Positions 13,395 to 13,590 of a DNA stretch of 64,000 nt are shown here, piece after piece. The position numbers and the translations under genes were made by a program. Every line of letters starts with the position of its first letter. Position 1 is the stretch's first letter. Source of the stretch: Escherichia coli. GTDB taxonomy: Bacteria > Pseudomonadota > Gammaproteobacteria > Enterobacterales > Enterobacteriaceae. Under the pieces are notes generated by a model that was given only the letters and a program-made list of their open reading frames with translations, did no database searches and was not told the DNA's origin. The stretch is from NCBI RefSeq assembly GCF_045037415.1, contig NZ_CP173438.1. One strand, given 5' to 3'.

Positions 13395-13535
13395 CACCTT
13401 TCCAGATACGGGAGGCGAAGTCATTTCTTCCTTCGCCCTGGTGGCAATCTTTACGAGCATTGTCACGGCCAAAGCACCGTATCAGTTGACCCAGGTGCAG
13501 AGGCTAGAGTGTTTAGTGGTTAAGCCGATACTAGC
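13395..13535 (-). ncRNA. Probable molybdenum-cofactor (Moco) riboswitch in the moaA 5' leader
   Basis: Position immediately upstream of moaA start with a stem (GGCGAAG/CTTCGCC) adjacent to the RBS; element known for E. coli moaA; exact boundaries not verified. Confidence 0.45.
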
Positions 13536-13566
13536 GTGTAAATGAGATTTTTACCATCCACACTTT

Positions 13567-13590
13567 CGCTATGTAATCATGTATATAGCG
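13567..13590. promoter_or_regulatory. ModE-type operator in the moaA promoter
   Basis: CGCTATGTAATCATGTATATAGCG palindrome with TATAT-type half-sites. Confidence 0.5.

What the first reader, a model, noticed from the sequence alone, without database searches (positions are those of the whole stretch)
13395..13590. moaA leader: Moco riboswitch region and ModE-type operator
The roughly 140-nt leader upstream of moaA (minus strand) contains a stem adjacent to the RBS and is where the Moco riboswitch is known to sit in E. coli, with a TATAT-type ModE dyad further upstream. Included for completeness; not novel.
Basis: established knowledge. Interest (0 to 1): 0.2.

Follow-up and report, generated by a model that had tools for sequence, protein, structure and literature searches.

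The report
E. coli moaA Moco riboswitch leader

Summary
Confirmed and ordinary. The window is E. coli chromosome: 13300-13800 is 100% identical to many complete genomes and is found in 5424 of 5426.

Rfam RF01055, the Moco RNA motif, matches 13523..13379 on the minus strand at 103.4 bits (gathering score 36, E 1.2e-24) over the full model. RefSeq annotates the same span as "molybdenum cofactor riboswitch" directly before moaA.

A covariance model I built from 12 sequences found one match in the window and 62 in fetched loci from many phyla. The helices covary strongly: 83% of cells are paired, against 62% when shuffled and 38-51% when slid, and 32 of 40 pairs show a change on both sides.

The Shine-Dalgarno sequence lies inside P5/P1, so the published mechanism applies: cofactor binding blocks translation.

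The ModE dyad CGCTATGTAATCATGTATATAGCG is at 13567-13590. It has one mismatch to the core consensus, with 0.01 matches expected by chance. It is centred 57.5 bp upstream of the S1 start.

Corrections:
- The leader is 130 nt from S1.
- The aptamer model runs past the ATG to 13379.
- ModE activates here rather than represses.

Nothing here is novel.

The parts
13379..13523 (-). Moco (molybdenum cofactor) riboswitch: aptamer plus translational expression platform
   Evidence: Rfam RF01055, 103.4 bits (GA 36), E 1.2e-24, full-length. My own model R1 scores 115 bits at 13520..13383 and this is its only window hit. RefSeq has a 'molybdenum cofactor riboswitch' feature on the same 145 nt.
13507..13521 (-). 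P1 5' strand: core AACAC(u)C at 13513..13507, outer extension at 13521..13518
   Evidence: Structure line of the Rfam alignment, pair list. P1 core pairs are 68% paired across 63 homologues, and 4 of 6 pairs show double-sided changes.
13468..13504 (-). P2 helix with an internal loop and a tetraloop-receptor-like segment (CCUGGG...UACGG)
   Evidence: Helix 3 is 86% paired, and 10 of 11 pairs have changes on both sides. The E. coli receptor deviates from the family consensus CCUAAG...UAUGG (alignment).
13441..13466 (-). P3 hairpin, whose presence marks the Moco class as opposed to the proposed tungsten-cofactor class
   Evidence: alignment (GUGAC...GCCAC with an 11-nt insertion in the loop). Citrobacter repairs the A.C mismatch to A-U. 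Mutations that disrupt and then restore P3 abolish and restore repression (PMC2408646).
13413..13438 (-). P4 hairpin capped by a GAAA tetraloop (13427..13424)
   Evidence: Helix 6 is 93% paired, with 7 of 11 pairs changed on both sides. GAAA is invariant in the 40-sequence alignment.
13402..13412 (-). P5 mini-hairpin CC-CGUAUCU-GG
   Evidence: 100% paired in 63 sequences, but part of this follows from the search pattern used to fetch the loci.
13393..13403 (-). Shine-Dalgarno tract GGAAAGG (13403..13397) overlapping the 3' strand of P5 and the 3' strand of P1 (13398..13393)
   Evidence: Read from the sequence. Regulski 2008 places the RBS inside P1. Its G126-G129 have an unpaired probability of 0.01 or less in the thermodynamic ensemble.
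12402..13391 (-). moaA coding sequence (GTP 3',8-cyclase), first gene of moaABCDE; start codon at 13391..13389
   Evidence: ORF list, NCBIfam TIGR02666 at 370 bits, RefSeq annotation of the operon.
13521..13533 (-). S1 transcription start (A at 13521) and its -10 hexamer TAGTAT (13533..13528); ModE-dependent promoter
   Evidence: S1 was mapped from the Regulski 2008 cloning primer, which starts at '+1' AACCACTAAAC and spans 1-145, equal to 13521..13377. The -10 hexamer is my reading of the sequence. The consensus promoter scan found nothing, as expected for an activator-dependent promoter.
13567..13590 (.). ModE binding dyad CGCTATGTA-ATCATG-TATATAGCG; on the minus strand it reads TATAT-N7-TACAT
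   Evidence: Inverted repeat I1. One mismatch to CGNTATATA-N6-TATATANCG, 0.01 expected. Consensus is from PMC545781. Identical in E. albertii, and both half-sites are kept in Citrobacter. Centre is at -57.5 from S1.
13608..13620 (-). Approximate S2 transcription start (-87 from S1) with a candidate -10 hexamer TATTCT
   Evidence: The position is derived from 'S2 as -87' in Regulski 2008 Fig. 2 legend. Accuracy is about +/-2 nt. The -10 hexamer is my inference.
13641..13654 (.).
   Evidence: 9 of 10 match to TTGAT-N4-ATCAA. Such near-matches are not rare: 7 were found and 2.8 expected. Position, conservation in Citrobacter and the published FNR dependence of S2 support it.
13373..13373 (-). Published Term-seq RNA 3' end (MG1655 817052), 6 nt past the end of the aptamer model
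   Evidence: Supplement of Adams et al. 2021 (PMC7815308), mapped to the window. That table flags it 'riboswitch' and not Rho-dependent.
13429..13431 (-). GGA motif in P4; with the GGA at 13403..13401 it is one of only two in the leader, and both are candidate CsrA sites
   Evidence: Motif scan. The literature states that CsrA binds two sites within the aptamer and activates translation (PMC7652899). Assigning those two sites to these two motifs is my inference.

Best explanation
The region is the E. coli moaABCDE control region.

Transcription starts at two promoters. [quoted passage not shown] S2 (about 13608) is activated by FNR at 13641-13654.

Both transcripts carry a 130-nt leader that folds into the five-helix Moco aptamer (P1-P5). 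When molybdenum cofactor, or a close pathway product, is abundant, the folded and ligand-stabilised aptamer closes P1 and P5 over the Shine-Dalgarno tract GGAAAGG (13403..13397). Ribosomes then cannot initiate at the AUG (13391) and MoaA-E synthesis falls, giving feedback repression at the level of translation.

Two published extras: CsrA binds two sites in the aptamer and favours translation, and untranslated moaA mRNA is subject to Rho-dependent termination.

What was shown here: the RNA family match, the covariation, the placement of the SD inside helices, the dyad match, the positions and the conservation. What is taken from the literature: ModE and FNR dependence, Moco-dependent repression, CsrA and Rho. 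What is inferred: the exact -10 hexamers, which GGA motifs are the CsrA sites, and that Moco itself is the ligand.
For: - Rfam RF01055, full-length, 103.4 bits against a gathering score of 36.
- RefSeq annotates the same 145 nt as the molybdenum cofactor riboswitch, followed by moaABCDE.
- The locus is present in 5424 of 5426 complete E. coli genomes, and 5240 of those are at least 99% identical.
- The independent model R1 finds one hit in the window and 62 hits in fetched loci from many phyla.
- Covariation across those 63 sequences: 83.0% of cells paired against 61.8% shuffled (0 of 500 shuffles reach it) and 37.7-51.0% for slid partners. There are 572 double-sided changes against 213 expected, with P2 at 86% paired and P4 at 93% paired.
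- The SD and AUG sit within P5, P1 and the extended P1.
- The ModE dyad has 1 mismatch with 0.01 expected by chance and is the only inverted repeat in the intergenic region. ModE is encoded 22 kb away (NF007957, 510 bits), and the only other window match is the modA operator.
- The dyad, the FNR box and both promoters are conserved in E. albertii and Citrobacter.
- Literature: Regulski 2008 shows more than 3-fold Moco-dependent repression, with P3 disrupting and compensating mutants, on exactly this sequence. CsrA is covered and Rho.
Against: - Direct binding of Moco to the RNA has not been demonstrated, because the cofactor is unstable. A 2024 paper still states that the exact regulating metabolite is unidentified (PMC10845959).
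- Single-sequence thermodynamics do not support the consensus fold. The MFE is -42 kcal/mol against -31 to -33 kcal/mol for the family structure, and the z-score against shuffles is only -0.79. In the MFE fold the SD is also paired, to the 5' strand of P2, so no SD-open 'ON' state is predicted.
- The E. coli P2 has three non-canonical positions, and its tetraloop receptor departs from the family consensus.
- I could not read the primary ModE footprinting paper (Anderson 2000), so the dyad-to-footprint identity rests on consensus match, position and secondary citation.
- The consensus promoter scan finds no sigma-70 promoter.
Confidence: 0.96

Rival explanations
1. The conserved leader RNA is a real regulatory structure but not a direct metabolite sensor. 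A protein, or a protein-cofactor complex, senses Moco and binds the RNA, or the RNA senses a different pathway product such as MPT or Mo-MPT rather than mature Moco.
For: Direct ligand binding was never shown, and the 2024 literature says the exact metabolite is unidentified. CsrA, a protein, does bind within the aptamer. The thermodynamic MFE is not the consensus fold.
Against: The motif has the size, multi-helix junction, tetraloop and receptor, and deep covariation typical of metabolite aptamers, and it occurs across many phyla upstream of Mo-related genes (PMC2408646). No sensor protein has emerged since 2008. Repression depends on the Moco pathway and on molybdate transport.
Confidence: 0.06
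2. The 13567-13590 dyad acts as a classical operator. On this reading ModE represses, for example by blocking elongation of S2 transcripts, since it lies at +29.5 relative to S2, rather than activating or in addition to activating S1.
For: The geometry puts the dyad centre 29.5 bp downstream of S2. At modA the same kind of dyad is a repressor site sitting over the promoter and leader.
Against: Published work, as summarised by Regulski 2008, reports ModE as an activator of moa transcription at S1. A centre at -57.5 from S1 suits activation. No data known to me show roadblocking of S2.
Confidence: 0.08
3. The dyad is a chance AT-rich palindrome in a promoter region and is not bound by ModE.
For: The full 28-nt consensus ATCGNTATATA-N6-TATATANCGAT is not matched within 3 mismatches. 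I could not read the primary footprint data.
Against: The core match has 1 mismatch with 0.01 expected per window. The only other hit in 64 kb is the bona fide modA operator. The dyad is conserved in Citrobacter while flanking sequence diverges. The literature places a ModE site upstream of S1.
Confidence: 0.02

Closest known systems
Moco RNA motif / molybdenum-tungsten cofactor riboswitch (Rfam RF01055; Regulski et al. 2008), E. coli moaA representative
   Same: It is this element. The sequence is identical to the '138/149 moaA' RNAs studied experimentally: the cloning primers match 13521..13377. It has the same P1-P5 architecture, the GAAA tetraloop, P3 present, and the SD in P1.
   Different: Nothing of substance. 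Relative to the family consensus, the E. coli copy has CUCUAG instead of CUCCGAG at the P1/P2 junction, three non-canonical positions in P2, a divergent receptor (CCUGGG/UACGG) and an 11-nt insertion in the P3 loop.
ModE-molybdate binding sites of E. coli (modA operator; consensus ATCGNTATATA-N6-TATATANCGAT / TATAT-N7-TAYAT)
   Same: Same dyad type and spacing as the modA operator, which is found in the same window at 35119-35142.
   Different: At moaA the site lies upstream of the promoter (-57.5 from S1) and is reported to activate. At modA it overlaps the promoter and leader just upstream of the gene and represses. The outer ATCG/CGAT flanks are less well matched here.
Other translational OFF riboswitches of E. 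coli (thiM/thiC TPP, btuB cobalamin)
   Same: Ligand-stabilised aptamer sequesters the SD. Secondary Rho-dependent termination follows when translation is blocked (PMC7815308).
   Different: In moaA the SD is part of the aptamer's own P1/P5 rather than a separate expression platform, and a global RNA-binding protein (CsrA) binds inside the aptamer (PMC7652899).

Membership tests
Moco RNA motif (Rfam RF01055) | Covariance-model score at or above the curated gathering score, full-length | tested here: met
   103.4 bits against 36, E 1.2e-24, model positions 1-135 of 135, not truncated.
Moco RNA motif (Rfam RF01055) | Helices P1, P2, P4 and P5 (plus or minus P3) around a conserved multistem junction, supported by covariation | tested here: met
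   The window sequence aligns with 62 homologues. 83% of cells are paired, against 62% shuffled and 38-51% slid, and 32 of 40 pairs have double-sided changes. Caveat: the alignment is fitted to the model, and the loci were fetched with a pattern covering the P5/junction.
Moco RNA motif (Rfam RF01055) | Conserved junction nucleotides (..AGGG.., GCCUCCC, GGAAAGG) and a GNRA tetraloop on P4 | tested here: met
   GAAA at 13427..13424, and GCCUCCC-N6-GGAAAGG at 13416..13397. These columns are invariant in the 40-sequence alignment.
Moco RNA motif (Rfam RF01055) | Tetraloop receptor in the P2 bulge (consensus CCUAAG...UAUGG) | tested here: inconclusive
   E. coli has CCUGGG...UACGG at the equivalent place. 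Whether it still docks the GAAA loop cannot be judged from sequence.
Moco RNA motif (Rfam RF01055) | P3 stem present (Moco-type rather than the proposed tungsten-cofactor type) | tested here: met
   An 8-bp P3 with one A.C mismatch at 13466..13441. The mismatch is repaired in Citrobacter.
Moco RNA motif (Rfam RF01055) | Located in the 5' UTR of a molybdate-transport, Moco-biosynthesis or Moco-enzyme gene, with an expression platform (SD in P1, or a terminator) | tested here: met
   Immediately upstream of moaA. The SD GGAAAGG lies in P5/P1. No terminator-like site was found in the leader.
Moco RNA motif (Rfam RF01055) | Moco-dependent repression of the downstream gene; direct ligand binding | not testable with these tools
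   Repression and its dependence on P3 were shown genetically for this exact sequence (PMC2408646). Direct binding has not been demonstrated in the literature I could read.
ModE binding site | Dyad matching the E. coli ModE consensus with N6 spacing between TATATA halves (TATAT-N7-TAYAT) | tested here: met
   CGCTATGTAATCATGTATATAGCG, 1 mismatch in 16 specified core positions, 0.01 expected by chance. The extended 28-nt consensus has 4 mismatches (and my count).
ModE binding site | Cognate regulator present in the genome | tested here: met
   modE at 35544..36332, NF007957 at 509.8 bits.
ModE binding site | Associated with a molybdenum-related promoter, at a position compatible with regulation | tested here: met
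   Centre is 57.5 bp upstream of the published S1 start of moaA. Conserved in E. albertii and Citrobacter.
ModE binding site | Bound by ModE-molybdate; molybdate- and ModE-dependent transcription | not testable with these tools
   Reported by Anderson et al. 2000 as cited in PMC2408646. The primary paper is not held.

The most novel reading that the evidence does not exclude
The most novel reading not excluded has two parts.

First, the ModE dyad may be bifunctional. Sitting at -57.5 from S1 but at +29.5 inside the S2 transcription unit, molybdate-ModE could activate S1 while acting as a roadblock to FNR-driven S2 transcripts.

Second, the leader may not be a simple two-state OFF switch. Nearest-neighbour folding keeps the SD paired, to the 5' strand of P2, even in the non-aptamer fold. 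Translation may therefore need active opening by CsrA, with Moco and CsrA competing for the same RNA.

Both are extrapolations from geometry and folding energies, not findings.
Probability: 0.1. Interest if true: 0.3.

Novelty: already known. Interest (0 to 1): 0.07.

Why it matters
It matters only as a sanity check. The scan correctly recovered a textbook regulatory region in which protein factors (ModE, FNR), an RNA sensor (the Moco riboswitch), CsrA and Rho together set the rate of molybdenum cofactor synthesis. The one open scientific question attached to it cannot be addressed from sequence: whether the aptamer binds Moco directly, and which form of the cofactor it binds.

Tried and rejected
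- The consensus sigma-70 scan of 13300-13850 found no promoter. This does not count against S1 and S2, which are activator-dependent with weak hexamers.
- The single-sequence RNA fold has a z-score of -0.79, and its MFE differs from the family fold. It was uninformative for membership, so covariation was used instead.
- The full 28-nt ModE consensus with up to 3 mismatches gave no hit. The 24-nt core was used instead.
- The FNR pattern alone is weakly specific, with 7 hits against 2.8 expected. The 13641-13654 box is accepted only because of its position, its conservation and the literature.
- A MAFFT alignment of 40 Moco motifs mis-aligned P2 and P3. It was replaced by a model-based alignment.
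- Of the 120 stretches returned by the pattern search in genome contigs, many are chance matches inside genes. Only model-confirmed hits were used.
- The primary papers Anderson 2000 (PMC94831), Studholme & Pau 2003 (PMC317290) and Patterson-Fortin 2013 (PMC3710303) are not held. Their content is cited second-hand.
- I considered whether short plus-strand ORFs in the leader (13367..13489, 13390..13545) mean anything. I rejected this: they are antisense to a conserved structured RNA and have no support.

Full report
**What is there.**
The window is Escherichia coli chromosome. Bases 13300-13800 are 100% identical to many complete genomes and occur in 5424 of 5426 of them, with 5240 at 99% identity or more.

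On the minus strand, moaA occupies 12402..13391 (ORF list; NCBIfam TIGR02666 at 370 bits). It is followed by moaB, moaC, moaD and moaE (RefSeq annotation of an identical locus). The divergent gene yvcK starts at 13788. The finding therefore lies in the 396-bp moaA-yvcK intergenic region.

**The riboswitch.**
A scan of the whole window against Rfam 15 gives a full-length match to RF01055 (Molybdenum/Tungsten riboswitch aptamer, Moco RNA motif) at 13523..13379 (-). The score is 103.4 bits against a gathering score of 36, with E 1.2e-24. RefSeq carries a 'molybdenum cofactor riboswitch' feature on the same 145 nt.

Mapping the Rfam structure onto window coordinates:

| Element | Window coordinates (minus strand) |
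|---|---|
| P1 5' strand | 13513..13507 (outer extension 13521..13518) |
| P2 | 13504..13468 |
| P3 | 13466..13441 |
| P4 | 13438..13413, with GAAA tetraloop at 13427..13424 |
| P5 | 13412..13402 |
| Junction AAA | 13401..13399 |
| P1 3' strand | 13398..13393 |
| AUG | 13391..13389 |
| P1 extension | pairs through 13385 |

The purine tract GGAAAGG (13403..13397), which is the ribosome binding site, is therefore split between P5 and P1.

**Independent test of the structure.**
I searched one genome per species for the junction pattern GCCTCCC-N6-GGAAAGG. I then aligned 12 clear representatives, imposed the Rfam-derived structure and built model R1.

R1 finds exactly one match in the window (13520..13383, 115 bits). 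It also finds 62 matches in 99 fetched loci, from Vibrio, Shewanella, Aeromonas, Citrobacter, Actinomycetota, Chloroflexi, Bacillota, deltaproteobacteria and others.

On that 63-sequence alignment:
- 83.0% of cells form standard pairs, against 61.8% after shuffling (0 of 500 shuffles reach it) and 37.7-51.0% when partners are slid by 1-3 columns.
- 32 of 40 pairs show changes on both sides.
- P2 is 86% paired and P4 is 93% paired.

There are two caveats. The alignment is fitted to the model, and the P5/junction columns are fixed by the search pattern. The covariation in P2 and P4 is nevertheless far beyond both controls.

Single-sequence thermodynamics are unhelpful. The MFE is -42 kcal/mol with a z-score of -0.79. 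The family fold is worth only -31 to -33 kcal/mol. That is common for aptamers that depend on tertiary contacts and a ligand.

**Promoters and protein sites.**
Regulski et al. 2008 (PMC2408646) define S1 as +1 and S2 as -87. Their cloning primer begins at +1 with AACCACTAAAC and their amplicon covers 1-145. This maps S1 to 13521 and the amplicon end to 13377. The leader is 130 nt from S1 and 217 nt from S2 (about 13608).

The only inverted repeat in 13380-13800 is CGCTATGTA / TATATAGCG at 13567-13575 and 13582-13590. It matches the core of the E. coli ModE consensus (ATCGNTATATA-N6-TATATANCGAT, PMC545781) with one mismatch, where 0.01 matches are expected per shuffled window. On the minus strand it reads TATAT-N7-TACAT.

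The only other match in 64 kb is at 35119-35142, 20 bp upstream of modA, and modE lies next to it. That is the classical ModE operator, which serves as an internal positive control.

The moaA dyad is centred at -57.5 from S1. It is identical in E. albertii and keeps both half-sites in Citrobacter. According to the literature, ModE-molybdate activates S1 and FNR activates S2. An FNR box, TTGATATACATCAT, sits at 13641-13654, about 40 bp upstream of S2, and is conserved in Citrobacter.

A generic sigma-70 scan finds no promoter, which fits weak, activator-dependent promoters. I read TAGTAT (13533..13528) as the S1 -10 hexamer and TATTCT as the S2 -10 hexamer. Both readings are inference.

**Mechanism.**
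Shown here:
- The RNA belongs to the Moco family.
- Its helices covary.
- Its SD and start codon are embedded in P5, P1 and the extended P1.

From the literature:
- With this exact leader fused to lacZ under lacUV5, expression rises more than 3-fold when Moco synthesis is off. Disrupting P3 de-represses and restoring P3 re-represses.
- The ModE and FNR effects are visible only when the leader is deleted.
- CsrA binds two sites within the aptamer and activates translation.
- A moaA 5'UTR+ORF fusion is more than 2-fold higher in a rho mutant. A strong RNA 3' end maps to MG1655 817052, which is window 13373, 6 nt beyond the aptamer model.

Inferred:
- Moco itself is the ligand. Direct binding has not been demonstrated.
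- The two GGA motifs in the leader (13431..13429 and 13403..13401) are the CsrA sites.

**Comparison and novelty.**
This is not merely similar to the E. coli moaA Moco riboswitch and the moa ModE site. It is those elements. Every sequence-testable defining feature is met. The exception is the tetraloop receptor, which is divergent in E. coli (CCUGGG/UACGG against CCUAAG/UAUGG). That was already visible in the published structure.

- The leader is 130 nt from S1 rather than about 140 nt.
- The aptamer model extends past the AUG to 13379.
- ModE acts as an activator here rather than through an operator in the repressor sense.
- The FNR/S2 module and the CsrA and Rho layers were not mentioned.

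**Verdict.**
Interest is very low (0.07). The residual speculative angles are ModE as a roadblock for S2 transcripts, and an SD that is paired in both predicted folds so that CsrA opening would be needed. Both rest only on geometry and nearest-neighbour energies.

Noticed in passing
window 35119-35142 (with modA 34326..35099 -, modE 35544..36332 +): Second ModE-consensus dyad, CGTTATGTAGGCGTCAATATAACG, 20 bp upstream of modA. It is the known modABC operator, with the regulator gene modE adjacent. It served as an internal positive control for the ModE pattern.
   Followed up: partly
window 50023-50161 (-): Full-length Rfam hit to the CpoB/ybgF ICR thermometer (RF02782), 153.7 bits.
   Followed up: no
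window 48393-49096 (-): Cluster of seven tRNA genes, five Lys(UUU) and two Val(UAC). This is the lysT-valT-lysW... array of E. coli.
   Followed up: partly
window 58523-58536 and 58575-58588: Two FNR-type boxes, the second a perfect TTGATTTATATCAA, about 280-350 bp upstream of cydA (56669..58240 -). They are presumably the known FNR sites of the cydAB promoter.
   Followed up: partly
L114 (Citrobacter sp. FP75), roughly 1705-1730; columns 187-210 of alignment A4: A 24-nt insertion (AATGTACTCGACGTATGACGAGTA) lies between the S1 start motif AACCAC and the aptamer's P1. It contains a short palindrome (TACTCG...CGAGTA), so the leader carries an extra 5' hairpin in this species.
   Followed up: no
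window 13379-13523 (-): The nearest-neighbour MFE (-42 kcal/mol) is an alternative fold in which the SD/P1 3' strand (AGGUGU) pairs with the P2 5' strand (GCACCU). The family fold is 9-11 kcal/mol less stable. The SD is paired in both, so no SD-open state is predicted without a protein or the ribosome.
   Followed up: partly
window 13567-13608: The ModE dyad is centred 29.5 bp downstream of the FNR-dependent S2 start, inside the S2 transcription unit, while being at -57.5 from S1. Whether bound ModE impedes S2 transcripts is unknown to me.
   Followed up: no
window 13373 (-): A published Term-seq 3' end (MG1655 817052, a high-read 3' end that the authors' table flags as not Rho-dependent) maps 6 nt past the 3' end of the aptamer model. 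This implies a stable RNA of about 149 nt, from S1 to just past the riboswitch.
   Followed up: partly
L087 (Geothermobacter hydrogeniphilus) 2239-2352, 2628-2740, 6197-6308; L100 3189-3299 and 4387-4498: Several fetched genomes carry two or three Moco motifs close together, on one strand in L087 and divergent in L100. This recalls the tandem arrangements described by Regulski 2008.
   Followed up: no
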